DNA of 64,000 bases from Candidatus Hydrogenedentes bacterium ADurb.Bin170 (GTDB taxonomy: Bacteria > Hydrogenedentota > Hydrogenedentia > Hydrogenedentales > CAITNO01), in NCBI GenBank assembly GCA_002070275.1, contig MWCY01000002.1, positions 11,820 through 75,819 of the forward strand, read 5' to 3'. The notes beneath the pieces were generated by a model. The model had not been told where the DNA came from and did no database searches. It saw only the letters and a program-made list of their open reading frames with translations. The position numbers were made by a program, and so were the translations under genes. Below, one piece after another: positions 27,131-63,040 of this stretch (the stretch's first letter is position 1; the number at the start of each line of letters is the position of its first letter).

Positions 27131-27280
27131 GGCCGACTCTCCTGAACTTGAATATTTCCGGATCTGAAAAATGAAACGATCCGGTATTTTGGTGCTCATA
27201 TCACTGCTGTGGTATTGTGTAGCTTCTTCCTTTTTTTACGCTGCCATTTTAACAGGAACCTCACGCTGAAAGGAAAAAGC

Positions 27281-33044: not shown

Positions 33045-33500
33045 TCAGGAAGTGCCAGTGGGGGCAGGCGCTTTACCGGAATCCTGTGCCGGGCGACCTC
33101 CGCGACCTCCCCGGGGTGCGCCGTCCGGCCGATTGCCTCTTCCCTGCCCGCCCCGTCTGCCACCCCAGCCTGGCAAATTCCATTCTTCGCGTTCACCCGG
33201 AGTTTTGTACCATTGTATGCGCGGTTTCGCCGTGGCAAAGCCCTCCACCCGTTCCGATCTCAGCCTGCCCAGCGGCACGCCGTTGGCATCCACAATCTCC
33301 GCTTCAATTGAAAAAGTACGGTCATCCCGTTTTTCAAATTTTTCCAGACTTTTAATATAGCCGCCCCGCTGGATCAGCTCATCCATGGCATTGAACTGCG
33401 CCATGACCTGCTTTTCTTCGGATGAAGGGCCACACCCGCTCAGGAGCAGGAGCGGAGGCAGCACAAACAATAATGCGATCCCTAAAGCATAGTGCTTCAT
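33045..33500 (-). CDS. Lipoprotein with C-terminal Arg/Gly-rich (RGG) tail
   Basis: Signal peptide plus lipobox (LLLLSGCGP), small globular region, C-terminal GWGGRRGGQGRGNRPDGAPRGGRGGRP low-complexity tail. Confidence 0.5.
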   Translation of the reverse strand: MKHYALGIALLFVLPPLLLLSGCGPSSEEKQVMAQFNAMDELIQRGGYIKSLEKFEKRDDRTFSIEAEIVDANGVPLGRLRSERVEGFATAKPRIQWYKTPGEREEWNLPGWGGRRGGQGRGNRPDGAPRGGRGGRPAQDSGKAPAPTGTS

Positions 33501-33527: not shown

Positions 33528-34511
33528 TCAGCCCCGGGTACGATCCATCAACGTGCCGAGAAACAGCGCCATGCCTTTATTCGCCGGTGCTTTGGCGGAC
33601 GGATAACGGAGAAACTCCACATGACCATCCATATACAGCACATTGGCACCGCCGGGCACATGGTTAAAATATTTTATATTGCTTGAAATCGCATCAAACA
33701 TGACCCATATATCGCTCTGCGCGCGGGCACTTGCTGCCGGGTTGTTGATATCCGTAATGAGAAAACGCTCTATACCTTCCCTCAAACGGTTAATCGTATT
33801 ACTGGAACCGTTGCCCATAGGAATCAGACCCAGACTGTTGGTCTGCACGGGACTGACTTCCTTGTCTTTATCCACCACCTGAAAACTGGCAACTACCGGA
33901 TCTTCTCCCGCACTGCGCCGGGCAATGGCATCACCGGCAGTCGTAAGCACCAGCGTCACAAACTGGTAGGGCCCCGATGCGTTCGGATCATCGAGAATAA
34001 AGCGGTTGGACAACTGGGGAATAATGGAAAAAACACCGCCCAGCGAAATGAAGGCTTCGTCCGGCTGATCATCGCCGCATTTATCCAGAAGAAACCCCAC
34101 ATACCCGTAACTGGTGTCAATAAGGTCGGGATGAAGATGCAGGATAAAATCGCCGGTATCAGGATCTTTCAGATCAGCCAGGCTGCTGGATGCATCGGAG
34201 GGGCACCAGGCAATGGAAGGATCCGTAAGATACTCGGGATAGATTGATTTCACCATGGGACCGATGGCAATATCGGCATTGTGATGGCTCCGGGCTTCAA
34301 ACTGCATGGGAGGGTATTTTTCGCCAGGAGATTCATTGGCGTACATCTTATATACCAGGCCCCATTGTTTCAGATTGTTCTGACAGCTCGAGCGACGGGC
34401 AGCCTCGCGTGCCCGTGCCAGTGCCGGAAGCAGAATAGCGGCAAGAATACCGATGATGGCTATCACAACCAGCAATTCAATCAGGGTAAAGCCTTGCTTG
34501 TTCTTTTTCAT
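33528..34511 (-). CDS. Prepilin-type N-terminal cleavage/methylation domain protein, DUF1559 family
   Basis: Class III signal [31 protein letters not shown] (G-1/F+1/E+5). C-terminal ..[15 protein letters not shown] typical of DUF1559. AGGAGA SD before ATG 34511. Confidence 0.8.
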
Positions 34512-34879
34512 AACTGTCTCCTTGAGAGCGTGAAACCTGTTCCCGAATCTGTACACGCTTTTCACTGCATGTTTTTAAAAATAAATTAACCTTAAATATA
34601 AAACTTTCATTTTTATCAGTCTATTAATAAAGACTTGAACATTTCGGAACGGGTTTCAGGTGCAGCACAGCCGCCCTTGCGTCCTGTAAATACGCTGCAG
34701 GTGCGCCATTTTCCACTTTTCTCCACCCGACTCATCAAAACAGCCTCAGAAGACTGCTTTCTCCTTCCACAAGACCATCTATCTATAGTGGGTGTATTGT
34801 TTCTATCCACAACATACAGTGGCTTTCCCTTTTAGTCAAAAATGATCTTGCAGAAACGGTTTTTTAAGCAAAAAAGGTA

Positions 34880-34909
34880 TTGACTTTTAGCCTGATAGTG
34901 GTTTAAAAT
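34880..34909 (+). promoter_or_regulatory. Sigma70-type promoter of the dcw cluster (P_mra): TTGACT-18 nt-TAAAAT
   Basis: TTGACT at 34880-34885, TAAAAT at 34904-34909, 18-nt spacer, approximately 40 nt upstream of the mraZ ATG. Confidence 0.5.
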
Positions 34910-34941
34910 GGAGTTACTTGGATAATTTTGGAAATTTAGGG
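34899..34941 (+). promoter_or_regulatory. Putative MraZ operator: five TGG/GGG repeats with exact 10-bp phasing
   Basis: TGG at 34899, 34909, 34919, 34929 and GGG at 34939 (TGGtttaaaa/TGGagttact/TGGataattt/TGGaaattta/GGG). The array spans the -10 element and 5'UTR of mraZ. Confidence 0.45.
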
Positions 34942-34950
34942 AAGAAGCGC

Positions 34951-35433
34951 ATGTACTACGGAGAATCTTTTACAATCCTTGACGGTAAGAAGCGGCTGGC
35001 TATCCCGGCGACGTTTCGCCGTGTGATGGAACAGGAAGATCATCGTGTCTGGTACATCACCAGGGGGTATGATCGTGCGCTCTTTATGTTTCGTGAAGAG
35101 ACCTGGGAGCAGCTGCTTAAAAATCTTCCCAATGCGCCACTCGATCCTCAGGTTCTTTCATTCCGTCGTTTTTTTCTGGGTGCCTCTATTCGGGTTGAGC
35201 CGGATGCGCAATGGCGCATTGCTCTGAGCGACGGTCTGAAAGATTTCGCACTGCTTGAGCGGGAATGTGCGATTCTCGGTGTTGAAGATCACCTTGAGAT
35301 TTGGAATAAGTCGCGGTGGACAGAATACAGCTTACAAAATATGGATGACTATAAAGTACGGGCTAGCGAGATTTTTTCGGGTCACAGCGCATCGACAAAC
35401 ATTCAGGAGGAAGCGAAACATGTTAACGATTGA
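34951..35433 (+). CDS. mraZ: Transcriptional regulator MraZ
   Basis: MYYGESFTILDGKKRLAIPATFRRVM.. and second repeat (..RVEPDAQWRIALSDGLKDFA..) match the duplicated MraZ fold. Start at internal ATG 34951. The ORF ATG 34918 would sit at the predicted TSS. Confidence 0.85.
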   Translation: MYYGESFTILDGKKRLAIPATFRRVMEQEDHRVWYITRGYDRALFMFREETWEQLLKNLPNAPLDPQVLSFRRFFLGASIRVEPDAQWRIALSDGLKDFALLERECAILGVEDHLEIWNKSRWTEYSLQNMDDYKVRASEIFSGHSASTNIQEEAKHVND

Positions 35434-35770
35434 TCAACAGACCAAAGATGCAGTGGCAGTGCTGACTGCTTCGGGCGTGCTCGACCAGGCTGAAATTCAC
35501 AAACTCCGTGAGGCCGTTGCCCGCAACATCCGCAAACACCAGTTTCATCTGGTGCTGAATCTGCGGCACGTCGGCATGATTGAATACCCGAGCTTCGGCG
35601 TTTTGCTGGAACTGCTCAGTGAACTCCAGCAGTATGGCGGCGGTCTGAAACTTGCCTGCGCCAATCTCCATACGCAGCGCATGCTGCGTCTCATGGGTCT
35701 CTGCCGGGTTCTCATGTGTTTCGATACGGAAGCGGAGGCAATCCGGCAGTATCAGAAAGAAGCAGCGTAA
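35420..35770 (+). CDS. STAS domain protein (anti-sigma-factor antagonist family)
   Basis: MLTIDQQTKDAVAVLTASGVLDQAEIHKLREAV..HLVLNLRHVGMIEYPSFGVLLEL..GGGLKLACANLHTQRMLRLMGL is SpoIIAA/RsbV-like, with a Ser at the phosphorylation position (EYPSFG). AGGAGG SD 9 nt upstream of ATG 35420. Overlaps the mraZ end by 14 nt. Confidence 0.7.
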   Translation: MLTIDQQTKDAVAVLTASGVLDQAEIHKLREAVARNIRKHQFHLVLNLRHVGMIEYPSFGVLLELLSELQQYGGGLKLACANLHTQRMLRLMGLCRVLMCFDTEAEAIRQYQKEAA

Positions 35771-35816
35771 TCATATGAAGATGCCGGCTGGGCGGCAGCA
35801 GTCGGGAGACAAGCGC

Positions 35817-36761
35817 ATGTCCGATTTCCCCGCTCCTCACGCACCGGTGATGCTTGAAGAGACAATCTCCTTTCTTCAGCTGCGCAGCAGTGGCATTTAT
35901 GTGGATATGACGGCGGGTGCCGGCGGTCATTCGGAACAAATCGCCCGCCATCTGGGTCAAGGACGGCTTATAGCTATTGACCGCGACAAAGAAGCCGTTG
36001 CCCTGACACGCAAGCGGCTGAGCCCCTATCCGGCAGCCACTGTGGTCCGGGCAAATTACAGTGAGTTGAAGACCATTCTGGAGGCGCAGGGATGCCCCGC
36101 TGTTGACGGCATTCTTCTTGATGCCGGTGTTTCGAGCATGCAGATAGACCGGGCGGAACGGGGATTTTCCTATTTGAAAGAGGGCCCGCTGGACATGCGT
36201 ATGGACTCTGATGCGCCTCTTGATGCTGCTGCCTGGCTGCAGTGTGTCAGTCCCCGGGATCTTGAGCAGGTGCTGAAAGAGTTTGGGGATGTCCGGCCTG
36301 TGCGCCGTATTGCACGGCACATCTGCAAGCGCCGTGATCAGGGGCAGCTGAAAAGCACATCAGATCTGGCAGAAGCGATCCGGGATGCATTAAACCATGT
36401 TGTTCCCAATCCTGTAGAGCTTCGCCAGGTGTTTCAGGCCGTCCGCATGGCGGTCAATGACGAGTTGAATCATTTAAAAACCGGACTGGAGCATGGGGCG
36501 GAATCCTTGTCTCCAGGCGGCAGGCTGGTAGTCATTTCTTTTCACAGCGGTGAAGACGGCTTAGTAAAAGAGCTGTTTAAAAGGCTCAGCAGACAGCAGA
36601 CAGAATTGCGTCCGGACGGGCGTATTCTGAAACGTGTTCCAGCCCTGTATAAAACAGTTACTGCCCGTCCTGTCCTGCCAACCCCGGAAGAAATTCAGCG
36701 TAATCCTCGCGCTAAAAGCGCAAAAGTCAGAGTACTGGAGCGGCTTCAATCCGCGGAGTGA
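35817..36761 (+). CDS. rsmH: 16S rRNA (cytosine1402-N4)-methyltransferase
   Basis: HAPVMLEETISFL..GIYVDMTAGAGGHS..IAIDRD..ILLDAGVSSMQID..RGFSY conserved RsmH/MraW blocks. Start chosen at ATG 35817 (GGGAGA upstream). Alternative ATG at 35775. Confidence 0.85.
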   Translation: MSDFPAPHAPVMLEETISFLQLRSSGIYVDMTAGAGGHSEQIARHLGQGRLIAIDRDKEAVALTRKRLSPYPAATVVRANYSELKTILEAQGCPAVDGILLDAGVSSMQIDRAERGFSYLKEGPLDMRMDSDAPLDAAAWLQCVSPRDLEQVLKEFGDVRPVRRIARHICKRRDQGQLKSTSDLAEAIRDALNHVVPNPVELRQVFQAVRMAVNDELNHLKTGLEHGAESLSPGGRLVVISFHSGEDGLVKELFKRLSRQQTELRPDGRILKRVPALYKTVTARPVLPTPEEIQRNPRAKSAKVRVLERLQSAE

Positions 36762-37327
36762 AGGTATTAAGGAGTGAGAAAATGAAGATTTTCTGCAAAG
36801 TCGGTCAAGATCAGAACATTTGGGCATGGATTTTTCGGCTCTTCTGCCTCGCAGGTCTGTTTTCTCTTCTCTTCATTGACGCCTACTTCAATATTCAACG
36901 ACGTAATAATGATTATGAAATCGGGCGGCTGGGCGCCAGGCGGCGCGCACTGGAAGACGAGCTGACACAACAGAACTCGTTGCTGTCACAGGTAAAGCCC
37001 AAAGAATTTATGGAAAAAAAAGCCGAGGAACTGGGATTGCAGAATCCGGACGTGTACCAGTTTCAGGTGGTTCAATATCGTGAAGTCCCCCGAAAAGCGC
37101 CCATTCTCCGGTTGGATAATCTGCAGAGGCCTCTTGAAGGACTGAATCCTCCCGTTAAACGGATAGAGATGGCGAATCGTCCTGAACTGGAAGCAGCACC
37201 TGCTATCCCCGTGCAGACCGTACCGGCTGTTGAAGCCGTTGAACTTAAGACCGTTCCAGCGCCGGCTGAGGTAGAGGATCCGGAGTTGTCTTTCATGTCG
37301 GTCGGTGACATGCTGGCATCATTATAA
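36758..37327 (+). CDS. ftsL: Cell division protein FtsL-like (septum formation initiator family)
   Basis: Position between rsmH and ftsI. Short cytoplasmic N-terminus, single TM (WAWIFRLFCLAGLFSLLFI), coiled-coil-like region (ALEDELTQQNSLLSQV). ATGA overlap with rsmH stop. Confidence 0.5.
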   Translation: MKVLRSEKMKIFCKVGQDQNIWAWIFRLFCLAGLFSLLFIDAYFNIQRRNNDYEIGRLGARRRALEDELTQQNSLLSQVKPKEFMEKKAEELGLQNPDVYQFQVVQYREVPRKAPILRLDNLQRPLEGLNPPVKRIEMANRPELEAAPAIPVQTVPAVEAVELKTVPAPAEVEDPELSFMSVGDMLASL

Positions 37328-37391
37328 ACGGCGGCGGAACGGAGAGAATTGCAGGCTCTGCCGTTCCTGAAAAAAAGGGAGGTACCATCTC

Positions 37392-39605
37392 ATGGCATTT
37401 CTGCGGCGGTTTCCACTGCACCCTGATCCTGATTTAAAACGGAAGGCCATGCAGCAGCATCAGCTACGCGCCTGTTTCGCCGGTGCCGGACTTCTCGTTC
37501 TCGGTACTTTCATTATCGGTATGCTGGTATATTCCAACTTTCATCCTCAGGAAAACCTGGCTTCAGAGGATGAAACACATATCGGGCGTTTTTTCATTAA
37601 AAATCAGCGCGGCGAGATTTTCGACCGCAACGGAACAGTGCTTGCGGTAAACAAGTCAGCACCGACACTGCAGGTCGATCCGCGGAAGGTGGAAGATGCG
37701 GATGCACTTGCAACCTTTCTCAGCAAGCACATTGATATGTCCTGGGAAGATATTTTTGCACGCCTTGCCAAACTGGACGAATCCGGCCAGGTGCGCAAAA
37801 TGAACACCATCAAGCGCTGGATAGAAAAACCTTCCAGAGAAGAACTTGAAAAGATTATTGCTTCCGAACCTTCTCTCTCGCTTCGAGACGAACCCCTGCG
37901 GCACTATCGCTACGGCGACAGCGCAGCGCATCTTTTAGGCTTTGTAAATCGCGCCGGGGAAGCCAGCGAAGGGCTGGAACTGGCCTTTGACAAATATCTG
38001 CACCCGCGCGCCGGAGAAATCCGCGCCAGAACAGACAACGGCAGACAGCTGCTGCCTTCGGGGCTTTTGTCTTATCAGGAGCCTGAAGGGGGAGACAAGG
38101 TACAGATTACTGTAGACATCAACATGCAGCAGACGCTTGAGCGCTGTCTGGACAAACGCATGGAAGAAGTGGGCGCAAAGGCAGCGATGGGCATCCTGAT
38201 GGATCCTCATACGGGCGCCATCTTTGCCCTTGCCAACCGCCCCGCTTTTGATCCGAACCATTACGATCTGTATGACCCTGCACTGCGGAAAAATCGTGTC
38301 GCTCTGGATCGTTTTGAACCGGGCTCTGCTTTCAAAATCGTCGTTTCCTCCGCGGCGCTTGAAAATCATCTCGTCTATCCGGAAGAAATGATTGACTGCG
38401 AGAACGGCGGATTCAATCCTTACGGGCATTATATAAAAGATTTCTACAGGCTGGGCGTAATCCCCTTCTCTTATGCCTTTGCCAAATCCAGCAATGTCGC
38501 CATGATCAAACTGGGCAAACGGCTCGGTCCGGAACGCATGGACGAATGGATTCGCCTTTACGGATTCGGCGAAAAAACGTCCCGTGATTTTAAGCATGAA
38601 AGCACTGGGATTTACCACGCCCGTGAGAAATGGTCTCGTCTGTCCATGGGCTCCCTGCCCATGGGCCAGGAAATTGCCGTAACCTCATTACAACTGGCGC
38701 GTGCCTTTGCGGTGATTGCCAGTGGCGGCCTTCTGGTGGAACCCTATTTTGTTGAACAGGCGGTGAACCGGTACGGGGAGGTGACCTATAAGCATGATCC
38801 CCTTCCACCGAAACGCGTTCTGTCTCCGGACACAGCAAAGACCATGGTGGAACTCTGCCACCAGGTCGTGCTGCATGGCACAGGTACGACCGCAAATATC
38901 CCTGAATTCCGCGTGGGCGGCAAGACCGGCACAGCACAAATGGCAAAAAGCAACGGACGCGGATATGATCCTGATCGTTACACCGCTGTCTTTGCAGGTT
39001 TTGCACCTGTAGCGTCTCCCAGTATTGTGGGTGTCATCGTGGTTCAGGAACCGGCAATCCGTCAGCGCTGGGGCGGCTTTGTCTGCGGGCCTGTTTTCCA
39101 GGAAGTGGTAAAAGATGCGCTAATCCGTCTGGGAACGCCGGAAGATCCCGTCGTTAACCCGGACAACCCCCGTATGGAACCCGTCAAAAAGACAGCACCG
39201 AAAGAGCAGGCACCTGCGCAGAGCAAAGACAAAGAGAGAACACTTATTGCCGATCTTATCGCCGAAGAAGATGCCGACACCGTCTCTCCTCCGCCTGCAC
39301 CGGAAGACATCGATGAAAACTTTCAGGCATTGATCACACCGCTTGACGGCATTTCTCTGGTTGCGCGGCCCATGGCTGCCAAAGGTGATGAGAAAGCAAT
39401 GCCTGATCTGACGGGAAAAACAAAGTCTCAGGTCAGAATGGAACTGCAGCGGATGGGTATTGTTCTTGATGCACAGGGTGTCGGCTGGGCCGTGGAACAG
39501 GAATTTGCTCCGGGATTATCGGTAGGCGATGTGAAGGTCTGCAGTATCCGCTTTTCCGACAAAATGCCGCCCATGGAAAAAGGGAACCCCGATGACGCAG
39601 GATGA
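37392..39605 (+). CDS. ftsI: Peptidoglycan D,D-transpeptidase FtsI (class B PBP) with C-terminal PASTA domain
   Basis: TM anchor, dimerisation domain, transpeptidase motifs SAFK (GSAFKIV), SSN (KSSNVAM), KTGT (GGKTGTAQ). C-terminal PASTA-like segment (MPDLTGKTKSQVRMELQRMGIVLD). Confidence 0.85.
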   Translation: MAFLRRFPLHPDPDLKRKAMQQHQLRACFAGAGLLVLGTFIIGMLVYSNFHPQENLASEDETHIGRFFIKNQRGEIFDRNGTVLAVNKSAPTLQVDPRKVEDADALATFLSKHIDMSWEDIFARLAKLDESGQVRKMNTIKRWIEKPSREELEKIIASEPSLSLRDEPLRHYRYGDSAAHLLGFVNRAGEASEGLELAFDKYLHPRAGEIRARTDNGRQLLPSGLLSYQEPEGGDKVQITVDINMQQTLERCLDKRMEEVGAKAAMGILMDPHTGAIFALANRPAFDPNHYDLYDPALRKNRVALDRFEPGSAFKIVVSSAALENHLVYPEEMIDCENGGFNPYGHYIKDFYRLGVIPFSYAFAKSSNVAMIKLGKRLGPERMDEWIRLYGFGEKTSRDFKHESTGIYHAREKWSRLSMGSLPMGQEIAVTSLQLARAFAVIASGGLLVEPYFVEQAVNRYGEVTYKHDPLPPKRVLSPDTAKTMVELCHQVVLHGTGTTANIPEFRVGGKTGTAQMAKSNGRGYDPDRYTAVFAGFAPVASPSIVGVIVVQEPAIRQRWGGFVCGPVFQEVVKDALIRLGTPEDPVVNPDNPRMEPVKKTAPKEQAPAQSKDKERTLIADLIAEEDADTVSPPPAPEDIDENFQALITPLDGISLVARPMAAKGDEKAMPDLTGKTKSQVRMELQRMGIVLDAQGVGWAVEQEFAPGLSVGDVKVCSIRFSDKMPPMEKGNPDDAG

Positions 39606-41082
39606 ACTGAGCACACTGCTGGATATTCCGCCGATTCACCGGGAATTGGAAATCAATTCTGTTACGGAAGATTCTAGAAAAGTGCATCCCTGCTCGTTGT
39701 TTATTGCAAGAGCGGGGCAGAAATCTGACGGACATTCCTATATGGAACAGGCTGTTGCCAACGGTGCAGCAGCCGTTCTGGGTAATCGTAAAGACATCGC
39801 TGACGCTTTCGGGAAACCCTACATTTTTTATGAGCATCCCCGACGGGCAGCAGGACTCATTGCGCATGCTCTGGAAGGCAACCCTTCCGAAAATCTGTGT
39901 GTGATCGGCGTTACGGGCACTAACGGAAAAACAAGCACCTGCTGCCTGATACAGCAGATCCTGAATCATTCCGGATTTTTGTGCGCCAACTTCGGCACAC
40001 TCGGATACAGCCTGCCGGAAGAAGAAGTGCCCGCAGCACATACGACCCCTTTTGGCGAAGACCTGGCTCAACTTTTTTCCCGGGCAAAACAGCAGGGCTG
40101 CACACATGTCGTCATGGAAGTCAGCTCTCACGCCCTGGAGCAGGAACGTGTCGCAGGCATTCATTTCAATATAGGCGCCTTTACGAACCTCACACAGGAC
40201 CATCTGGACTACCATCAGTCCATGGACGCTTATCTTGAAGCCAAATTGCTGCTGTTTCACAAACTGCATGCTGTTTTTCAGGATCCGCAGGGCGCCCGTC
40301 CCTGCTTTTCAGCCGTCAACCGGGAAGACCCTTCGGCAGCGCGTTTTATTGAGGCTTTTCCTGAAGCCTGCATCTCCTATGGAAAAGGCGGAACCATTCA
40401 TGCAAAAGAGGTGGTTCTCGATATTCACGGCGCACAATTTACACTGGTCACCCCCGAAGGCTCTGCAGCGGTCACGCTTTCTCTCGTCGGCAGGCATAAT
40501 GTGCAGAATGCACTGTGCGCTGCAGCGATCTGTCACGGAGCAGGCATACCGCTGAAAGCAATAGCCGCCGGACTTGCTTCCCTGACATCGATCCCGGGGC
40601 GCATGGAAGCTGTCGGCGAAGGTTTTCCTTTTCAGGTTGTCGTCGATTACGCTCACACCGATGACGGATTGCGCAACGCACTCAACGCCGCCCGGGCTGT
40701 CTGCAAGAGAAAAGTCATTGTCGTATTCGGCTGCGGAGGCGACAGGGATAAAAGCAAACGTCCGAAAATGGGTGCTGTTGCGGCGGAGCTCGCCGACTTG
40801 GCCATTATCACCTCGGACAACCCCCGAACAGAAGATCCTTTCCTGATCCTGCTGGATGTGGAGATTGGACTGCAGAAACGGCAGAAATATAAAGGCGATG
40901 ACTATCTGGTCATTGAATCCCGTCAGGAAGCAATAGAAAAAGCTGTATCAATGGCAGCACCGGGCGATCTTATACTGATCGCCGGCAAGGGTCATGAAGA
41001 TTACCAGATTATCGGAACCGAGCGGCGACATTTTGACGACCGGGAAGCAGCGCGCGCCGCTCTGAAAGCTCTTTCATTATGA
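39592..41082 (+). CDS. murE: UDP-N-acetylmuramoyl-L-alanyl-D-glutamate--2,6-diaminopimelate ligase
   Basis: GVTGTNGKTST P-loop, DNPRTEDP motif, Mur ligase three-domain pattern. Position in dcw order. Confidence 0.9.
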   Translation: MTQDELSTLLDIPPIHRELEINSVTEDSRKVHPCSLFIARAGQKSDGHSYMEQAVANGAAAVLGNRKDIADAFGKPYIFYEHPRRAAGLIAHALEGNPSENLCVIGVTGTNGKTSTCCLIQQILNHSGFLCANFGTLGYSLPEEEVPAAHTTPFGEDLAQLFSRAKQQGCTHVVMEVSSHALEQERVAGIHFNIGAFTNLTQDHLDYHQSMDAYLEAKLLLFHKLHAVFQDPQGARPCFSAVNREDPSAARFIEAFPEACISYGKGGTIHAKEVVLDIHGAQFTLVTPEGSAAVTLSLVGRHNVQNALCAAAICHGAGIPLKAIAAGLASLTSIPGRMEAVGEGFPFQVVVDYAHTDDGLRNALNAARAVCKRKVIVVFGCGGDRDKSKRPKMGAVAAELADLAIITSDNPRTEDPFLILLDVEIGLQKRQKYKGDDYLVIESRQEAIEKAVSMAAPGDLILIAGKGHEDYQIIGTERRHFDDREAARAALKALSL

Positions 41083-42437
41083 GCATGCATTATACACTGC
41101 AGGAAGCCGGTGCCATGATGGGGCTTTCTTTATCGGGAAGCATGCAGGACGCTCCGGTGATCACAGGCGTGTCCACAGATACCCGGACACTGCAGAAAGG
41201 CGACCTCTTTTTCGCACTGAATGGAGAAAACTTCCGCGGGGATGATTTCGTGGCGGCTGCTTTTCAAAAAGGCGCTGTTGCGGCTGTAACAGACGGATCG
41301 GGCTATAAAGATCCTTTTTTTCAGACATCCAACGCACTGGAAGCACTGCAGCGGCTTGCAGGCGCACATAGAGACCGCTGCCCCGCACGCATTATCGGCA
41401 TCACAGGCTCCTGCGGAAAAACTACGGCAAAAGACATGCTCGCCTCTGTACTCTCTTCTGAATATGTGGTGGAAAAAACACAAGGCAACCTTAACAACGA
41501 TATCGGATGCCCTCTTTCGCTGCTGCGCCTGTCTCAGGCAACTCACTTCGGCATTATAGAAATGGGCGCCAACCATATCGGCGAAATCCGGGCGCTCTGC
41601 GGGCTTGCAAAGCCTGATGAGGGCGTAGTTACACTTGTGGCGCCTGCCCATCTTGAAGGCTTCGGATCACTGGAAGGCGTGGCAGCAGCCAAAGCGGAGC
41701 TGATGGAAGCACTTCCTGAAAAGGGATGTTTTTATGTGAATATGGATGACCCGCTCTGCAGAGCGATGGGCGAACGTTTTCGGGGAGAAACGGTACGTTT
41801 CGGTACGGGCGGGGATGTGTATCTGAAAGAACTTCGGTTTGATGATGAGGGTGAAATGGTTCTGAAGGTGCACCCTGTGGGAACACTGCGTCTTCCGCTC
41901 CGCATTCGTGCCCATGTCTCTCATGTGCTGCTGGCGGTAGCTGCGGGGCTGCGCCATGGCATCATTTCTCTTGAAGCTCCTCTCCGTGACGCCTGTAAAA
42001 AAGCAGCGAGATTCAAAGAAGCCCTTTTTCAGGGCGTGCATGTGCTGGATGACAGTTACAACGCCAACCCGGCAAGCATGAAAGCATCTTTGGAAGCGCT
42101 CCGGGACTATCCCGGGCAGCGCCGCATAGCAGTGCTGGGAGACATGTTTGAACTGGGAAAATCAGCGGAAGCCCTGCATGCGGATATCGGTCGTTTTGCG
42201 GCGTCCCTGTCTATTGACTTCCTTTTATCGCTTGGCGGGTATGGCGGTATCATGGCGGAGGCGGCACATCGGGCAGGGCTGGATCAGGCATTTGCCTGTG
42301 CCAGCCACCAGGAGGCTGCAGCCTGGCTGCAGAATAACACGGCGGCGGGAGATGCGGTTCTGCTCAAAGGCTCCCGGGGCATGAAAATGGAAACAGTATT
42401 TGAGCAGTGGAAAAGTATTGCCCCGGCCGGGCAATAA
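41079..42437 (+). CDS. murF: UDP-N-acetylmuramoyl-tripeptide--D-alanyl-D-alanine ligase
   Basis: GITGSCGKTTAKDM P-loop, Mur ligase family. ATGA overlap with murE. dcw order. Confidence 0.85.
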   Translation: MSMHYTLQEAGAMMGLSLSGSMQDAPVITGVSTDTRTLQKGDLFFALNGENFRGDDFVAAAFQKGAVAAVTDGSGYKDPFFQTSNALEALQRLAGAHRDRCPARIIGITGSCGKTTAKDMLASVLSSEYVVEKTQGNLNNDIGCPLSLLRLSQATHFGIIEMGANHIGEIRALCGLAKPDEGVVTLVAPAHLEGFGSLEGVAAAKAELMEALPEKGCFYVNMDDPLCRAMGERFRGETVRFGTGGDVYLKELRFDDEGEMVLKVHPVGTLRLPLRIRAHVSHVLLAVAAGLRHGIISLEAPLRDACKKAARFKEALFQGVHVLDDSYNANPASMKASLEALRDYPGQRRIAVLGDMFELGKSAEALHADIGRFAASLSIDFLLSLGGYGGIMAEAAHRAGLDQAFACASHQEAAAWLQNNTAAGDAVLLKGSRGMKMETVFEQWKSIAPAGQ

Positions 42438-42440
42438 CGG

Positions 42441-43934
42441 GTGGATTTCATGGCATATTGGCTGTCTGTTCTTCTGAAAGATGAGGTGGGCTTCACCAAC
42501 GTATTAAGCTACCACAGCGTCCGTGCGGGCGGTGCCGCTTTCACCGCTTTTTTTCTTTCCATCCTTTTAGGTCCGGCAATTATCCGGAGGCTGCGCCAGC
42601 TGAAAATCGGACAGTATATCAGAGAAGAGCATGTCGAAAGCCTGCACGAACTTCATAAAGGAAAAGCAGGAACACCCACCATGGGTGGCCTGATGATCAT
42701 CGTTTCCACCCTTGCCGCTCTGCTTCTGTGGGGCAGACTGTCGAACCGCCTTCTATGGGTTTCCATGATTATCCTCCTGGTCATGGGCGCTTTGGGGTTT
42801 ATGGATGATTTCATCAAACTGAAACGCAAACATAATGCAGGCTTGAGCGCCCGGGCAAAATTCGCCGGTCAGATTCTGACGGGTCTGCTTCTGGGTATTT
42901 ATCTGGTCAATAACCCCATTACTGTCAGCGAATCCTATGTGCTGCATCGGGACGTCATCAACTGGCCTCTTCTGGAATCGATGCTGGCAGGCGCACACGA
43001 GCGAAGCCAGACCCCGGATGTAAAAAAAATCTGCAGTATGTTGTCCCCGGAGTGCAGGAGCATCATCAGAGGAAATGTAAATGAAGCACAGATCACCGAT
43101 GAAGAACAGCAGACAGTGCTGAAAGAACTCAATCTGGCACTTCGCAGCACAGAGCTCTACGAGGAAGCACTCTGGCACGACATTGTAAAGAACCCGGAAG
43201 CAAGACGGCTCCTCCAGTCTTCCCCTGAGAAGATGAGTGAACGGGATCTGATCCGCTTTAACCGGCTGTTACTGGAGCAGAGTTTCTCCGGAATGATTGC
43301 GGAAAGCGTTCCGAACCTTCATACCAAGCTGGGGATTCCGGGATTCAAAGAACTATTTATCCCCCTGGGCTTCTTTTACATCTTCTTCGTCACACTTGTC
43401 ATGGTCAGCATAACCAACGCCGTCAATCTTACCGACGGGCTGGACGGGCTTGCCGCCGGCGTTTCCATCATTTCCATTCTTGCCTATGCAGCCATCGCCT
43501 ATATCATCAGCCGGGCAGACTGGTCACGCTATCTTTTCCTAACCTATGTTCCCGAGGCAAGCGAACTCTTCGTCTTCGGGGCGGCACTTCTTGGCTCCGG
43601 CCTGGGTTTTCTCTGGTTTAACGGACATCCCGCAGAAGTCTTCATGGGCGACACCGGCTCTCTGGCATTGGGCGGAGCCATCGGTGCGCTGGCGCTGCTG
43701 ACCAAACAGGAACTGCTGCTTCCCGTTGTTGCCGGTCTTTTTGTTCTGGAAGCAGCAAGCGTCGTCATTCAGGTATTTTCATTTAAACTGACAGGGAAAC
43801 GTGTTTTCCGCATGTCGCCGCTGCATCATCATTTTGAATTGTGCGGCTGGAAGGAAACCAAAGTAACCCTGCGTTTCTGGATTCTTGCGTTTCTGTTTGC
43901 GCTTCTCAGTCTGGGCGCATTAAAGCTTCGTTGA
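42441..43934 (+). CDS. mraY: Phospho-N-acetylmuramoyl-pentapeptide transferase with approximately 135-aa loop insertion
   Basis: Conserved MraY blocks (GTPTMGG, MDDFIKL, NAVNLTDGLDGLA, GDTGSLALGGA, MSPLHHHFE). Protein is 497 aa versus approximately 360 typical, with the extra segment between the TM4-like and TM5-like helices. Confidence 0.9.
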   Translation: MDFMAYWLSVLLKDEVGFTNVLSYHSVRAGGAAFTAFFLSILLGPAIIRRLRQLKIGQYIREEHVESLHELHKGKAGTPTMGGLMIIVSTLAALLLWGRLSNRLLWVSMIILLVMGALGFMDDFIKLKRKHNAGLSARAKFAGQILTGLLLGIYLVNNPITVSESYVLHRDVINWPLLESMLAGAHERSQTPDVKKICSMLSPECRSIIRGNVNEAQITDEEQQTVLKELNLALRSTELYEEALWHDIVKNPEARRLLQSSPEKMSERDLIRFNRLLLEQSFSGMIAESVPNLHTKLGIPGFKELFIPLGFFYIFFVTLVMVSITNAVNLTDGLDGLAAGVSIISILAYAAIAYIISRADWSRYLFLTYVPEASELFVFGAALLGSGLGFLWFNGHPAEVFMGDTGSLALGGAIGALALLTKQELLLPVVAGLFVLEAASVVIQVFSFKLTGKRVFRMSPLHHHFELCGWKETKVTLRFWILAFLFALLSLGALKLR

Positions 43935-43950
43935 CAAACACCGGGAAAAT

Positions 43951-45324
43951 ATGGATCTGACAGGTAAACATATCCTTCTAGTGGGGCTGGGCCGCTCTTC
44001 GGTGGCAGCGGCGCAGCTCATTATGGAAAAGGGAGGGATGCCTTTTATCAGCGAGCGGAACGACGGACAATCGCTGGAAAACTGGCTGGAGATCTGTCGC
44101 ACCCGGGGAATTCCTGTGGAAACGGCCGGGCATACATCTCCCCTCTTTCAAACCGCCGATCTCGTTGTAATCAATCCGGGTGTCCCCTATAGCGCCCCCT
44201 GCCTGGACATACCGAAAGAAAAAGGCATACCCGTCGTCGGAGAATTGGAATTCGCCTCCTGGTTCAATCACTCCACCGTTATTGCCGTCACCGGAACCAA
44301 TGGAAAAACCACCGCTACCAGTCTCCTTTACACCATGATCCGCACCTGTGGGTATAGTGTCGCTTTGGCAGGCAACACACATACCGCATGGTCGGAAGTT
44401 ACTGCAAAAGAAGAACAACCTGAATATACCGTGCTGGAAGTAAGCAGTTATCAGATGGAAACGGCAGATACATTTCACCCGAAAGTTGCCGTCATTCTCA
44501 ATCTTACCCCGGATCATCTGGGCAGGCATGGAACCATGGAATGCTATGGCGCAACAAAAGCACGTATATTTCAACGCATGCAGTCAGGTGACACAGTCAT
44601 TCTAAATAAAGATTACGCCGCTTTACGCGCCTTGCCTCTTCCTTTTCAGGCAGAAACAGTCTGGTTCGGAAAAGCAAGGGATGGCGATAAAACGGGTTGG
44701 AGCTATGATACCGCCCACTTCTATCAGGACGGCGAAATTGCCGCCGATGCAAAAGACAGTCCACTGCCGGGACTGCATAATAAAGAAAATATTACTGCCG
44801 TGCTTGCTGCCGCTCATGCACTGGGACTGGACTGGGGCGGAGTTTTACAGGGACTGCGGCAGTTTGCAGGTGTTGAGCACCGCATTGAATATGTCGCTTC
44901 CATCAACGGGATCGCATTTTTCAACGATTCAAAAGCCACCAATATAGACAGCCTCCGGGTGGCGCTGGAAAGCTTTGTGCAGCCGGTGGTTCTGATTGCG
45001 GGAGGAGAAGGAAAAGGCAGCAGTTATGAACCGCTCCGTTCTCTTATCCGTGACCATGTCAGTACCCTGATAACTATTGGCGAGGAAGCGCCGGCTCTTG
45101 AAGCATGCTTTCAAAAAGACGTTTTCATTTGCCGGGGAACAACCATGAAAGACGCCGTTTACAAGGCATATACGGCGGCTTCACCCGGCAGTGTTGTCCT
45201 CCTCTCCCCTGCCTGCGCCAGTTTTGACTGGTACAGCAATTATGAGGAGCGGGGCGGTGATTTCAAAAACTGCGTTCATGCGCTTAAAGAAGATCTGCAT
45301 ACAGGCGAGGAGAAAGGAAAATGA
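43951..45324 (+). CDS. murD: UDP-N-acetylmuramoylalanine--D-glutamate ligase
   Basis: N-terminal Rossmann (ILLVGLGRS), VIAVTGTNGKTTATSLL P-loop, Mur ligase C-domain. dcw order. Confidence 0.9.
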   Translation: MDLTGKHILLVGLGRSSVAAAQLIMEKGGMPFISERNDGQSLENWLEICRTRGIPVETAGHTSPLFQTADLVVINPGVPYSAPCLDIPKEKGIPVVGELEFASWFNHSTVIAVTGTNGKTTATSLLYTMIRTCGYSVALAGNTHTAWSEVTAKEEQPEYTVLEVSSYQMETADTFHPKVAVILNLTPDHLGRHGTMECYGATKARIFQRMQSGDTVILNKDYAALRALPLPFQAETVWFGKARDGDKTGWSYDTAHFYQDGEIAADAKDSPLPGLHNKENITAVLAAAHALGLDWGGVLQGLRQFAGVEHRIEYVASINGIAFFNDSKATNIDSLRVALESFVQPVVLIAGGEGKGSSYEPLRSLIRDHVSTLITIGEEAPALEACFQKDVFICRGTTMKDAVYKAYTAASPGSVVLLSPACASFDWYSNYEERGGDFKNCVHALKEDLHTGEEKGK

Positions 45325-46496
45325 AAAAAGAAACCAATACACTGATCATGGCTGTACTGGCGCTGGTTCTGCTGGGCACACTGATGATGTACAGTATTGA
45401 TGCCGTGCGCGGGCCCAAATCCATGATTCTCTATAAACATCTGGCGTTTCTCGGCTTAGGGCTGATCGGTTTTTTCTTCACAATGATACTTGATTACCAC
45501 GTGCTCGGAAGTCCGGCGGTTCGGAAAGCATTTCTGATTGGCACGCTGATTCTCCTTGCGTGCACTTTTATTCCCGGTCTTCGGCTGAGCATGGGCGGCG
45601 CTTATCGGTGGATCGGATGGAAACAGCTGAGTTTTCAGCCTGCTGAACTGGCACGTTTCACCCTTGTACTCATGCTCGCTGTCCGATTATCTAAACAGCA
45701 GGATAATATGAGCTATTGGACAACCAGCCTTGTAAAGCCGGGATTTTATCTCGGGCTTTTCGCCGGGATAGTTGTGCTGCAAAAGGATCTCGGAATTCCT
45801 GTCGTCATGTCCGTTGCCACGTTCATCATTATATGGACTGCCGGCGCCCGCATTGCCCACCTGGGTCTTGCAGGTGCGGTAGGTATCACCGCAATTATCC
45901 CGCTTATTGCCATGGAAGGGTACAGAGCGACCCGAATTAAATCATTTATGGATCCCTGGGCAGCACGGGATAGTCACGGCTATCAATTAATTCAATCGCT
46001 CTCTTCTTTCTATCAGGGAGGTGTCTGGGGGCGCGGTGTAGGTTTCGGAGAGCAGAAACTCGGTTATCTCCCGGCTGCACATACAGATTTTATCTTTGCC
46101 ATGATCGGTGAAGAACTGGGGCTGGTGGGAACCATTGTGGTAGTGCTGCTATTTACAGCCATTCTCATTGCGGGCATTCGGACTGTGGTGCGGGCGCCTG
46201 ATCTGTTCGGGTCTCTTCTGGCTGTCGGAATTACGACGCTCATTGTCTTTCAGGCCTTCTTCGTCATGTTGGTTAACCTTGGGTGGCTGCCGACCAAAGG
46301 GCTTCCTCTCCCCTTCGTAAGCTATGGCGGCAGCGCCCTGATGACCAATCTGTGGATGGCAGGCGTGCTGATCAACATTGCTTCTCAGGCAAGTGAAAAG
46401 GAAAAAACGGCGAGAAGCAGTGTTTTTACTCATTCACGACTGAAATACCTGTTCCGCATTTTCCTTCCTAAAAAACCGGCGACAGTACGTATCTGA
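45321..46496 (+). CDS. ftsW: SEDS family peptidoglycan glycosyltransferase / lipid II flippase FtsW
   Basis: 10-TM SEDS pattern (..TDFIFAMIGEELG..LPTKGLPLPFVSYGGSA). ATGA overlap with murD. Position after murD. Confidence 0.85.
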   Translation: MKKETNTLIMAVLALVLLGTLMMYSIDAVRGPKSMILYKHLAFLGLGLIGFFFTMILDYHVLGSPAVRKAFLIGTLILLACTFIPGLRLSMGGAYRWIGWKQLSFQPAELARFTLVLMLAVRLSKQQDNMSYWTTSLVKPGFYLGLFAGIVVLQKDLGIPVVMSVATFIIIWTAGARIAHLGLAGAVGITAIIPLIAMEGYRATRIKSFMDPWAARDSHGYQLIQSLSSFYQGGVWGRGVGFGEQKLGYLPAAHTDFIFAMIGEELGLVGTIVVVLLFTAILIAGIRTVVRAPDLFGSLLAVGITTLIVFQAFFVMLVNLGWLPTKGLPLPFVSYGGSALMTNLWMAGVLINIASQASEKEKTARSSVFTHSRLKYLFRIFLPKKPATVRI

Positions 46497-46529
46497 CTTT
46501 CGGTGTAAGGCGATACAGACAGGCTGGAA

Positions 46530-62741: not shown

Positions 62742-63040
62742 CCTGTTTCTGTTTTCAGGTATGCTATGCAGCCCGTAGCAAGTGCGACCCCGAGCTGATA
62801 AATTAATTGTTTTTATTGTTTTACAGCTCTTTTTTCCTGAACAAGCCCGACTAAGGGGATTTATAGAGATTTTAAAATGAATATTTCCAGAAGAAGCCCG
62901 TCAATATTGATAGCAGGGACTGTGCCCTGCAATTCAGTAATGAAAAATCTGGAGTTGCTTTCCGGATGGAAAACAGCGTGCTTCTCAAAAAATCTGTCGC
63001 ACTTGTCGCTTTTTCCCGGCAGTCTCTGTTTGGAGCGCCT

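What the first reader, a model, noticed from the sequence alone, without database searches (positions are those of the whole stretch)
35420..35770. STAS-domain anti-sigma-factor-antagonist gene embedded between mraZ and rsmH in the dcw cluster
The mraZ-rsmH junction is among the most conserved gene pairs in bacteria. Here a 116-aa SpoIIAA/RsbV-like STAS protein with its own strong SD (AGGAGG) is inserted, overlapping the mraZ 3' end by 14 nt. Its putative phospho-Ser (EYPSFG) is conserved. This suggests a partner-switching module co-expressed with division and cell-wall genes, and possibly a link between a stress-signalling cascade and septation. No cognate anti-sigma kinase or PP2C phosphatase is in the window.
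Basis: partly seen in the sequence, partly recalled or inferred. Interest (0 to 1): 0.6.

Follow-up and report, generated by a model that had tools for sequence, protein, structure and literature searches.

The report
Non-phosphorylatable STAS gene inside dcw operon
A small SpoIIAA-like STAS protein gene really does sit between mraZ and rsmH, and it does so across the uncultured phylum Hydrogenedentota, but it has a tyrosine where the regulatory phospho-serine should be, so it is probably not a classical phosphorylation-switched anti-sigma antagonist.

Summary
Window 35420-35770 (+) encodes a 116-aa STAS protein (Pfam E 3e-14; AlphaFold pLDDT 95.7; TM 0.88 to SpoIIAA). It has an AGGAGG Shine-Dalgarno site and overlaps the mraZ stop by 14 nt.

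One detail is wrong. In EYPSFG, the residue aligned with SpoIIAA Ser58 / RsbV Ser56 is Tyr56. The Ser aligns with SpoIIAA Gly60.

The gene belongs to a family of at least 220 proteins, and nearly all named sources are Hydrogenedentes. In 134 members the phosphosite column is Y 122, F 8, C 2, S 1, N 1, and 133 end in Ala-Ala.

About 40 fetched loci have the order mraZ-STAS-rsmH-ftsL-ftsI. These include 3 of 3 loci chosen through RsmH alone. The STAS start usually overlaps the mraZ stop. dN/dS is 0.06-0.13. No RsbW-type kinase or PP2C phosphatase is encoded in the 64-kb window.

Best reading: a phosphorylation-independent STAS binding module made with MraZ from the MraZ-controlled dcw promoter. 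Its amount may be set through an ssrA-like C-terminal Ala-Ala degron. Its target is unknown; I favour an operon product (MraZ or RsmH) over a distal RsbW-like protein.

This is a new variant of a known kind and of moderate interest.

The parts
34880..34909 (+). Sigma-70-like promoter candidate for the dcw operon (TTGACT, 18-nt spacer, TAAAAT)
   Evidence: 10 of 12 consensus matches. It is the only + strand promoter-like site in 34500-37500.
34898..34941 (+). Five xTGG boxes phased exactly 10 bp apart (GTGG, ATGG, TTGG, TTGG, AGGG), resembling a MraZ operator between the promoter and mraZ
   Evidence: Read from the sequence; spacing table. Canonical GTGG repeats lie at the same place in L040, L026, L021 and L035. 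MraZ boxes are described as GTG(G/T) with six spacer nucleotides (PMC12957436). Binding was not tested.
34951..35433 (+). mraZ (160 aa)
   Evidence: PF02381 E 2e-22. TIGR00242 scores 85 bits, below its cut-off of 98. The MYYGE start is shared by all relatives.
35405..35410 (+). Shine-Dalgarno AGGAGG for the STAS gene, inside the 3' end of mraZ
   Evidence: The same motif is present in L001-L008, and GGTGG/GGAGA-type motifs in more distant loci.
35420..35770 (+). STAS-domain-only protein gene (116 aa), the feature in question
   Evidence: Pfam STAS 53 bits. AlphaFold pLDDT 95.7, pTM 0.89. Foldseek best match is SpoIIAA 1th8_B, TM 0.88, rmsd 1.5 A. dN/dS 0.06-0.13.
35585..35587 (+). Codon TAC for Tyr56, which occupies the position of the phospho-acceptor Ser of SpoIIAA (S58) and RsbV (S56)
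   Evidence: It is the first residue of helix 56-70 in the model.
35762..35767 (+). Codons GCA GCG for the C-terminal Ala-Ala, which is invariant in the family
   Evidence: 133 of 134 members end in AA. All four Ala codons and all three stop codons occur across 34 loci, so the constraint acts on the protein.
35817..36761 (+). rsmH (16S rRNA m4C1402 methyltransferase). The start is uncertain; an alternative ATG lies at 35776.
   Evidence: PF01795 E 7e-92; TIGR00006 301.6 bits against a cut-off of 154.3.
36758..37327 (+). ftsL-position gene (189 aa, no Pfam hit)
   Evidence: One search found no family. A gene of 131-208 aa without a Pfam hit occupies this position in the gene-called loci. The assignment rests on position only.
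37392..39605 (+). ftsI-type class B PBP
   Evidence: PBP_dimer plus Transpeptidase domains.
39592..46496 (+). Rest of the dcw cluster: murE-like, murF-like, mraY (497 aa), murD, ftsW
   Evidence: Mur ligase domains. Glycos_transf_4 with MraY_sig1, and FTSW_RODA_SPOVE.

Best explanation
Window 35420-35770 is a real gene for a single-domain STAS protein with a SpoIIAA-type fold. It is this genome's copy of a family that lies between mraZ and rsmH in every Hydrogenedentota locus examined.

Shown:
- The fold.
- The conserved position in the operon.
- The usual 4-17 nt overlap with the mraZ stop codon, which implies translational coupling.
- Purifying selection.
- Replacement of the canonical phospho-Ser by Tyr or Phe (rarely N, Q, C or S).
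- An invariant C-terminal Ala-Ala.
- No neighbouring kinase or phosphatase gene.

Inferred:
- The protein is a phosphorylation-independent binding module. Its activity is set by its concentration rather than by a Ser kinase / PP2C cycle.
- It is synthesised together with MraZ from the MraZ-box-controlled dcw promoter.
- It is probably removed through the C-terminal Ala-Ala, an ssrA-like, ClpXP-type degron.
- It uses the same face that SpoIIAA uses for SpoIIAB to hold a conserved partner. This face comprises the beta2-alpha1 acidic loop, the start of helix alpha2 and helix alpha3, and it is the most conserved part of the family.

Partner: my preferred candidate is a product of the same operon, MraZ first and then RsmH. 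That would make a three-part MraZ-STAS-RsmH control unit for division and cell-wall genes. I give this about 0.35-0.4, conditional on the rest. The alternative target is listed as a rival.
For: - Fold: Pfam STAS E 3e-14; AlphaFold pLDDT 95.7; TM 0.88 and rmsd 1.5 A to SpoIIAA in the SpoIIAB complex.
- Phosphosite: Tyr56 aligns with SpoIIAA S58 and RsbV S56. The family column is Y 122, F 8, C 2, S 1, N 1 of 134. Members with N, Q or S at that site still sit in mraZ-STAS-rsmH.
- Nearest relatives outside the family (multidomain proteins of Latescibacterota and Krumholzibacteriota) keep Ser in 'VSSGGWG'. This suggests the Tyr is a derived state.
- Synteny: MraZ-STAS-RsmH in about 40 loci, down to 26-35% STAS identity. 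It also holds in 3 of 3 loci picked through RsmH alone.
- Coupling: the modal mraZ/STAS overlap is -11, -14 or -4 nt, with SD-like motifs. There is one promoter-like site plus 10-bp-phased xTGG boxes upstream, and no credible terminator. The MraZ box definition comes from PMC12957436.
- Selection: dN/dS 0.06-0.13.
- C-terminus: AA in 133 of 134, encoded by all Ala codons. A terminal Ala-Ala-COO- is essential for ClpXP recognition of ssrA-like degrons. It controls sigma-AntA, a regulator that lacks its usual antagonist (PMC7142297). The E. coli screen consensus [L/F/Y/W]-[L/A/R]-L-A-A (PMC10862746) resembles the common family ending (Y/F)-(R/Q)-E-A-A.
- No kinase or phosphatase in the window.
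- The conserved-Ser phosphorylation cycle is what defines canonical STAS-only proteins (PMC8256260).
Against: - No binding partner was identified; the operon-partner idea rests on gene neighbourhood alone.
- The family keeps the acidic residues that dock canonical STAS proteins onto their kinases (equivalents of SypA D20 and D22; PMC10120452). D20 is present in 92% and D22 in 98% of the family; the window protein has V20 and D22. This fits a GHKL partner at least as well as MraZ.
- The whole genome could not be scanned for RsbW-like or PP2C genes, so a distal kinase is not excluded.
- Ser55, one residue before the Tyr, is conserved in 96% of the family and could be an unconventional acceptor. 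In the window clade it is Glu or Asp.
- A terminal Ala-Ala is necessary but not sufficient for ClpXP. Here the antepenultimate residue is usually Glu, and the model keeps residues 104-115 helical.
- Expression was not measured.
Confidence: 0.5

Rival explanations
1. Canonical anti-sigma-factor antagonist. The protein is phosphorylated on a conserved Ser by an RsbW/SpoIIAB-type kinase and reactivated by a PP2C phosphatase, both encoded elsewhere, and so links a stress cascade to septation.
For: - SpoIIAA-type fold with TM 0.88.
- TIGR00377 E 5e-14.
- Some sources annotate family members as 'anti-sigma B factor antagonist'.
- The docking Asp (D22) is conserved (PMC10120452).
Against: - The phospho-acceptor position is Tyr56.
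- Phe, Asn, Gln and Cys at that position in orthologues in the same synteny rule out a conserved phospho-switch there.
- The Ser of EYPSFG aligns with SpoIIAA Gly60 and is Gly in 95% of the family.
- The next residue, SpoIIAA Ser59 (the equivalent of SypA Ser57, which one search lists among residues important for binding or phosphorylation), is Pro here and Met in the family.
- TIGR00377 scores below its cut-off (52.2 against 53.45).
- No kinase or phosphatase is encoded in the 64 kb, or within 3-10 kb in about 45 relatives.
Confidence: 0.07
2. Non-phosphorylatable pseudo-substrate or constitutive antagonist of a distal RsbW-type GHKL anti-sigma kinase. By binding the kinase without being phosphorylated and released, it would free a sigma factor or other target in proportion to dcw-operon expression. 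That would couple a regulon to growth and division state.
For: - The closest structures are SpoIIAA and RsbV in complex with their kinases.
- The kinase-docking acidic loop (G-D-I-D-E; D20 in 92%, D22 in 98%) and Phe53 are conserved in the family. These match residues reported as important for kinase binding (PMC10120452).
- The most conserved surface is the phosphosite face.
Against: - No GHKL partner is encoded nearby in any locus, whereas partner-switching genes are normally adjacent (PMC8256260, describes such modules).
- The window protein itself has lost D20 (Val) and carries Pro57.
Confidence: 0.22
3. Phosphorylation at a shifted or different acceptor. Either Ser55 (one residue upstream, conserved in 96% of the family) or Tyr56 itself is phosphorylated. 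In that case Glu55/Asp55 of the window clade would act as a built-in phosphomimic.
For: - S55 is present in 128 of 134 members and Y56 in 122 of 134.
- E or D at position 55 occurs only in the window clade.
Against: - Position 55 corresponds to the canonical Asp of the 'DS' motif in SpoIIAA and RsbV. Glu or Asp there is therefore simply the ancestral STAS state.
- Tyr to Phe, Asn or Gln changes occur in syntenic orthologues.
- No kinase gene is nearby.
Confidence: 0.08
4. Spurious or decaying ORF: an overlapping reading frame, or a relic STAS gene without function.
For: Only that it overlaps mraZ and that no function is known.
Against: - dN/dS 0.06-0.13.
- At least 220 homologues with 34 nearly invariant positions.
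- pLDDT 95.7.
- Conserved SD and start.
- Position conserved across loci whose RsmH is only about 46-57% identical to the window's.
Confidence: 0.01

Closest known systems
SpoIIAA / RsbV (Bacillus anti-sigma-factor antagonists; PDB 1TH8, 1AUZ, 6M36)
   Same: - Single-domain STAS protein of about 115 aa.
- Same fold (TM 0.88, rmsd 1.5 A).
- 24-25% identity.
- Conserved Asp in the beta2-alpha1 loop and a G-x-G after the phosphosite.
   Different: - The phospho-Ser is replaced by Tyr or Phe, and the following Ser by Pro or Met.
- No adjacent kinase, sigma or phosphatase genes.
- The gene sits inside the dcw operon, coupled to mraZ.
- The C-terminal Ala-Ala is invariant.
Non-canonical STAS-domain-only proteins (SypA, BtrV, RbaV; review PMC8256260)
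   Same: Stand-alone STAS proteins whose output is not, or not only, a sigma factor and whose final targets are unknown.
   Different: Those proteins still carry the conserved Ser (S56, S55) and act with a serine kinase/phosphatase. This family does not.
MlaB (STAS subunit of the MlaFEDB lipid transporter)
   Same: A STAS protein that works as a stoichiometric, non-switching accessory subunit of a complex encoded in its own operon.
   Different: - Much weaker structural match (TM 0.52-0.64).
- There are no mla genes here.
- The operon is dcw.
Sigma-AntA of Streptomyces and other ssrA-like C-terminal Ala-Ala ClpXP substrates
   Same: A regulator that lacks its usual antagonistic partner and carries a conserved C-terminal Ala-Ala (67 of 71 orthologues there; 133 of 134 here).
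   Different: The protein family is unrelated. ClpXP degradation was demonstrated there but is only inferred here, and the upstream residues here (usually Glu at position -3) differ from the optimal Leu.
The MraZ-RsmH pair at the head of the dcw cluster
   Same: Same operon head: a promoter followed by 10-bp-phased GTG(G/T)-like boxes, then mraZ, rsmH, ftsL and ftsI.
   Different: In model bacteria rsmH directly follows mraZ (established knowledge). Here a third gene is inserted and translationally coupled to mraZ across a phylum.

Membership tests
STAS domain superfamily (Pfam PF01740; SpoIIAA-like fold) | Profile match above the curated gathering score | tested here: met
   53.0 bits against 22.6, E 3.3e-14, covering residues 4-107. 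PF13466 also matches, 38.1 against 29.2.
STAS domain superfamily (Pfam PF01740; SpoIIAA-like fold) | Alpha/beta fold superimposable on solved STAS structures | tested here: met
   AlphaFold pLDDT 95.7. Foldseek match to 1th8_B with TM 0.88, rmsd 1.5 A and probability 1.00; 54 PDB matches at E <= 1e-3, of which nearly all of the 50 listed are STAS proteins or domains.
Anti-sigma-factor antagonist (SpoIIAA/RsbV type; NCBIfam TIGR00377) | Score at or above the curated family cut-off | tested here: not met
   52.2 bits against a cut-off of 53.45 (borderline). The spore_II_AA equivalog scores 43.5 against 114.75.
Anti-sigma-factor antagonist (SpoIIAA/RsbV type; NCBIfam TIGR00377) | Conserved phosphorylatable Ser (SpoIIAA S58, RsbV S56) at the N-terminus of helix alpha2 (PMC8256260) | tested here: not met
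   Tyr56 occupies that column. The family column is Y 122, F 8, C 2, S 1, N 1.
Anti-sigma-factor antagonist (SpoIIAA/RsbV type; NCBIfam TIGR00377) | Cognate GHKL serine kinase / anti-sigma factor encoded in the same locus | tested here: not met
   No HATPase_c_2 hit among about 58 window ORFs. Neighbours in related loci are dcw genes only. The rest of the genome was not searched.
Anti-sigma-factor antagonist (SpoIIAA/RsbV type; NCBIfam TIGR00377) | PP2C (SpoIIE/RsbU-type) input phosphatase | tested here: inconclusive
   None in the 64-kb window (same calls).
Anti-sigma-factor antagonist (SpoIIAA/RsbV type; NCBIfam TIGR00377) | Binds an anti-sigma factor and releases a sigma factor | not testable with these tools
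   This needs biochemistry or multimer modelling.
MlaB-type STAS accessory subunit | Encoded with the mlaF/E/D ABC-transporter genes | tested here: not met
   No such genes flank it. The structural match is weak, TM 0.52-0.64.
SulP/SLC26 transporter STAS domain | STAS fused C-terminally to a transmembrane anion transporter | tested here: not met
   Stand-alone 116-aa ORF bounded by the mraZ stop and its own stop.
ssrA-like C-terminal ClpXP degron | Terminal Ala-Ala-COO- | tested here: met
   The window protein ends in ...KEAA. 133 of 134 family members end in AA, encoded by all four Ala codons.
ssrA-like C-terminal ClpXP degron | Favourable upstream residues, and actual ClpXP-dependent turnover abolished by AA-to-DD | not testable with these tools
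   The upstream pattern (Y/F)-(R/Q)-E only partly matches [L/F/Y/W]-[L/A/R]-L. Turnover requires an experiment.

The most novel reading that the evidence does not exclude
The STAS protein is a direct, phosphorylation-independent partner of MraZ (or of RsmH). This would turn the enigmatic two-gene MraZ-RsmH head of the dcw cluster into a three-component regulatory unit. MraZ's repression of division and cell-wall genes would then be modulated by a STAS protein whose level is set by ClpXP-type proteolysis through its invariant C-terminal Ala-Ala. That would be a mode of dcw control, and a use of the STAS fold, that I found no description of.
Probability: 0.2. Interest if true: 0.7.

Novelty: new variant of a known kind. 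Interest (0 to 1): 0.5.

Why it matters
mraZ-rsmH is one of the most conserved gene junctions in bacteria, and the physiological role of MraZ and its interplay with RsmH are still poorly understood. A whole phylum has kept a third gene wedged into that junction and translationally coupled to mraZ. That is a natural experiment pointing to an additional regulatory layer on division and cell-wall genes.

The family also shows a SpoIIAA-type STAS protein that has lost the phospho-switch while keeping a strongly conserved binding face and acquiring an invariant Ala-Ala end. It is therefore a candidate example of a partner-switch component converted to dose or proteolysis control. The predictions can be tested heterologously (binding, EMSA, ClpXP assays) even though the phylum is uncultured.

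The practical point for annotation is that 'anti-sigma B factor antagonist' labels on these proteins are not justified.

Tried and rejected
1. Canonical phospho-Ser reading of EYPSFG: rejected by three independent alignments.
2. Search for kinase or phosphatase partners in the window: none found.
It was repeated with A3.
The MraZ-partner idea is therefore untested.
5. Viral origin or relatives: two scans of viral contigs found none.
6. Defence-system reading: PADLOC gave only a meaningless 13-bit hit.
7. Literature linking mraZ with STAS or anti-sigma antagonists, or Hydrogenedentes with division: nothing relevant.
8. Idea that the terminal Ala-Ala reflects a nucleotide-level signal such as the rsmH ribosome-binding site: rejected, because all Ala and stop codons are used and the downstream sequences differ.
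9. Idea that the nearest multidomain STAS relatives (HATPase_c_2-Cache-HAMP-SpoIIE-HTH-3xSTAS) supply the kinase in the same genomes: rejected, because they come from Latescibacterota and Krumholzibacteriota.
10. Cluster look-ups for organism names of long-contig members gave no names.
Full report
**1. The observation**

- The ORF listing and the raw sequence show an ATG ORF at 35420-35770 (+) of 116 aa.
- AGGAGG lies at 35405-35410, 9 nt upstream of the ATG.
- Upstream is MraZ (34951-35433; PF02381 E 2e-22).
- Downstream is RsmH (about 35817-36761; PF01795 E 7e-92; TIGR00006 301.6 bits against a cut-off of 154.3).
- These are followed by an ftsL-position gene, ftsI, murE-like and murF-like ligase genes, mraY, murD and ftsW.
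- The ORF matches Pfam STAS with 53 bits against a gathering score of 22.6.

The gene is real:
- AlphaFold with a 120-sequence alignment gives pLDDT 95.7 and pTM 0.89.
- dN/dS between nine pairs of orthologues is 0.06-0.13.

**2. The detail that is wrong**

- The phmmer alignment to SpoIIAA (1auz, 1th8) is gap-free through the motif. It pairs LNLRHVGMIEYPSFGVLL with LNLEDLSFMDSSGLGVIL.
- SpoIIAA Asp57, Ser58, Ser59 and Gly60 therefore face Glu55, Tyr56, Pro57 and Ser58.
- Two independent MAFFT alignments, with B. subtilis SpoIIAA and RsbV sequences that I supplied from memory, place SpoIIAA S58 and RsbV S56 in the Tyr56 column.
- In the model, Tyr56 is the first residue of helix 56-70. From my recollection of the SpoIIAA structures, the phospho-Ser sits at the equivalent helix start.
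- The Ser of EYPSFG is therefore not the phospho-acceptor equivalent. It is Gly in 127 of 134 relatives.

**3. The family**

- A word-indexed search found only three close relatives.
- An exhaustive profile search of 1.84 billion representatives found a distinct top group of 114-117-aa proteins. After that came ordinary STAS proteins with the DS(S/T)G motif.
- A second search with a 19-member alignment returned 220 proteins at E <= 1e-8.
  - Named ones are 'STAS domain-containing protein [Candidatus Hydrogenedentes/Hydrogenedentota bacterium]'.
  - One is labelled Bryobacteraceae.
- The genome scan gave a Ca. Hydrogenedens MAG (63% identity) and a MAG labelled Nitrospiraceae (32%). The RsmH of the latter is 49% identical to the window's, within the 48-57% range of named Hydrogenedentes RsmH. 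I therefore regard the odd labels as binning or naming noise.
- The window is thus from a Hydrogenedentota bacterium of the Hydrogenedens clade.

Among 134 family sequences:

| Feature | Count |
|---|---|
| Phosphosite column | Y 122, F 8, C 2, S 1, N 1 |
| Position 55 | Ser in 128; Glu or Asp only in the window's clade |
| C-terminus | Ala-Ala in 133 (EAA 86, KAA 15, RAA 11) |

- All four Ala codons and all three stop codons are used across 34 loci. The Ala-Ala end is therefore selected at the protein level.
- The nearest STAS domains outside the family belong to large HATPase_c_2-Cache-HAMP-SpoIIE-HTH-3xSTAS proteins of Latescibacterota and Krumholzibacteriota. They keep Ser ('VSSGGWG'), so the Tyr looks like a derived state.

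**4. Synteny**

- tblastn with the window's MraZ, STAS and RsmH (and with those of L009) was run on the loci fetched up to that point. Called-gene tables were used for the loci fetched later.
- About 40 of the 48 fetched loci show the order MraZ-STAS-RsmH. Six more are cut by a contig end on one side, so only one flank could be read.
- This includes contigs of 5.1 Mb and 3.5 Mb.
- STAS identity in these loci falls to 26-35%.
- To avoid circularity I also started from RsmH. I looked up three RsmH proteins that were not tied to a listed STAS hit. All three loci have a 114-118-aa STAS gene between mraZ and rsmH.
- Divergent members with Asn (P0008), Gln (P0039) or Ser (P0007) at the phosphosite are in the same place.
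- Two fetched loci do not show the arrangement. One holds P0019, a 32%-identical Tyr-bearing STAS protein that sits in a phage- or mobile-element-like block. The other, L038, is a fragment at a contig edge with no detectable MraZ or RsmH.
- No relatives were found in viral contigs.
- The STAS start overlaps the mraZ stop by 11, 14 or 4 nt in most loci, with an SD-like motif inside mraZ.

In the window:
- The only + strand promoter-like site is TTGACT-18-TAAAAT at 34880-34909.
- The two terminator-like hits lie inside coding regions and are fewer than expected from shuffles.
- Between the promoter and mraZ there are five xTGG boxes phased exactly 10 bp apart (34898-34941).
- Relatives have clean GTGG repeats there. 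This matches the MraZ box description of GTG(G/T) with six spacer nucleotides (PMC12957436).
- The STAS gene is therefore part of a MraZ-autoregulated dcw transcript and is translationally coupled to MraZ. This last step is inferred from the sequence architecture and was not measured.

**5. Mechanism**

- Canonical STAS-only proteins are defined by a cycle. A kinase / anti-sigma factor phosphorylates a conserved Ser, and a PP2C phosphatase removes the phosphate (PMC8256260).
- That defining residue is absent here. Orthologues tolerate Phe, Asn, Gln and Cys at the position.
- The following residue is Pro here and Met in the family. It corresponds to SypA Ser57, which one search lists among residues important for binding or phosphorylation.
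- No kinase or phosphatase is encoded in the 64 kb or next to any orthologue.
- I therefore reject phosphorylation-driven partner switching for this family.

What is conserved is the face that SpoIIAA, RsbV and SypA use to dock on their kinases:
- the acidic loop G-D-I-D-E (D20 in 92%, D22 in 98%);
- Phe53;
- the start of alpha2 (S-Y-M-G-x-G-V-L-V-E-R-L-R);
- alpha3 (N82, R87, R90, M91, G93) (the interface residues are listed in PMC10120452).

From this I conclude:
- The protein most likely still works by binding one conserved partner, but in a dose-dependent rather than phospho-dependent way.
- Its dose would be set by Pmra/MraZ and translational coupling.
- Its dose would probably also be set by the invariant Ala-Ala-COOH. 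This motif is essential for ClpXP recognition of ssrA-like tags, and it controls sigma-AntA, a regulator without an anti-sigma partner (PMC7142297).
- The usual family ending (Y/F)-(R/Q)-E-A-A matches four of five positions of the E. coli screen consensus (PMC10862746). That study also shows that Ala-Ala alone is not sufficient.

Which partner:
- Gene-neighbourhood logic favours MraZ or RsmH. The insertion has been retained across the phylum, the STAS gene is coupled to mraZ, and no other conserved neighbour exists. I give this about 0.35-0.4.
- The retained kinase-docking residues favour a distal RsbW-like GHKL protein, for which this protein would be a non-releasable pseudo-substrate. I give this about 0.2-0.25.
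- I could not discriminate between them.

**6. Comparison and novelty**

- By fold the protein is a STAS / SpoIIAA-like protein, so superfamily membership is met.
- It fails the defining tests of the anti-sigma-antagonist family:
  - the phospho-Ser is absent;
  - there is no adjacent kinase;
  - the NCBIfam score is 52.2 against a cut-off of 53.45.
- It is not MlaB-like or SulP-like.
- Full-text searches found no paper linking mraZ with a STAS or anti-sigma-antagonist gene, and none describing this gene in Hydrogenedentota.
- I classify it as a new variant of a known kind: a phylum-specific, dcw-embedded STAS subfamily without the phospho-acceptor Ser and ending in Ala-Ala.
- Interest is moderate (0.5). 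The conserved breach of the mraZ-rsmH junction and the loss of the phospho-switch are surprising, and the predictions are testable heterologously. Against that, the partner is unknown and the phylum is uncultured.

Noticed in passing
window 34880-34945: A promoter-like TTGACT-18-TAAAAT is followed by five xTGG boxes phased exactly 10 bp apart (GG at 34900, 34910, 34920, 34930, 34940). Only the first box is a canonical GTGG. Relatives (L040, L026, L021, L035) have clean GTGG repeats at the same place. This looks like a MraZ operator placed downstream of the -10 element.
   Followed up: partly
window 34951-35433 (MraZ residues 13-15 and 87-89): In the window's clade both conserved MraZ motifs have lost their glycine: KKR instead of KGR, and QWR...A.S instead of QGR.P.P in the other Hydrogenedentota. 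The same clade has the most divergent STAS motif (EYPSFG...LELLS against SYMGLG...VERLR). This may be co-divergence of MraZ and the STAS protein, or simply a fast-evolving lineage.
   Followed up: no
window 45321-47864: The dcw cluster stops after ftsW (ends at 46496). The next gene is an aminotransferase on the opposite strand. No murG, murC, ftsQ, ftsA or ftsZ was found among the window ORFs scanned with Pfam.
   Followed up: partly
window 42441-43934: MraY is unusually long at 497 aa. The MraY signature lies at residues 75-87, but the Glycos_transf_4 match covers only residues 295-420, which suggests a large insertion. The orthologue in L040 is 496 aa.
   Followed up: no
L046 3001-3351 (protein P0019): A 116-aa STAS protein with Tyr at the phosphosite (VDYPSVA), ending in ...RAAA and 32% identical to the window protein, lies outside any dcw cluster. 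Its neighbours look phage- or mobile-element-like (AAA_23, RNA_ligase, DUF5131, N6_N4 methyltransferase). No relatives were found in viral contigs.
   Followed up: partly
proteins P0009, P0014, P0016 and others (not in the window): The nearest STAS domains outside the family are the middle repeat of very large HATPase_c_2-sCache-HAMP-SpoIIE-HTH-3xSTAS proteins from Latescibacterota and Krumholzibacteriota. These are all-in-one partner-switching proteins with the canonical Ser retained.
   Followed up: partly
window 33528-34565 (-) and 33045-33500 (-): A prepilin-type N-methyl / DUF1559 protein and a small Gly/Arg-rich lipoprotein-like ORF lie divergently upstream of mraZ. The DUF1559 gene is in the same position in L004, L008 and L042, and the small ORF in L004 and L008, but neither is there in L040.
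   Followed up: no
L009 (CAYRLQ010000086.1) and P0226: Contigs labelled 'uncultured Nitrospiraceae' and 'Bryobacteraceae' carry the Hydrogenedentota-type mraZ-STAS-rsmH block. The L009 RsmH is 49% identical to the window's. These are probably mis-binned or mis-named MAG contigs.
   Followed up: partly
window 23801-27199 (-): A 1131-aa protein has a 'hydrazine synthase alpha subunit middle domain' hit (PF18582, E 1e-21) together with PD40 and NHL beta-propeller repeats. Its function here is unknown.
   Followed up: no
window 62966-63631 (+): An ECF-type sigma factor (Sigma70_r2 plus r4_2) lies at the edge of the window, 27 kb from the STAS gene. There is no evidence of a link; any cognate anti-sigma gene would lie beyond the window end.
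   Followed up: no
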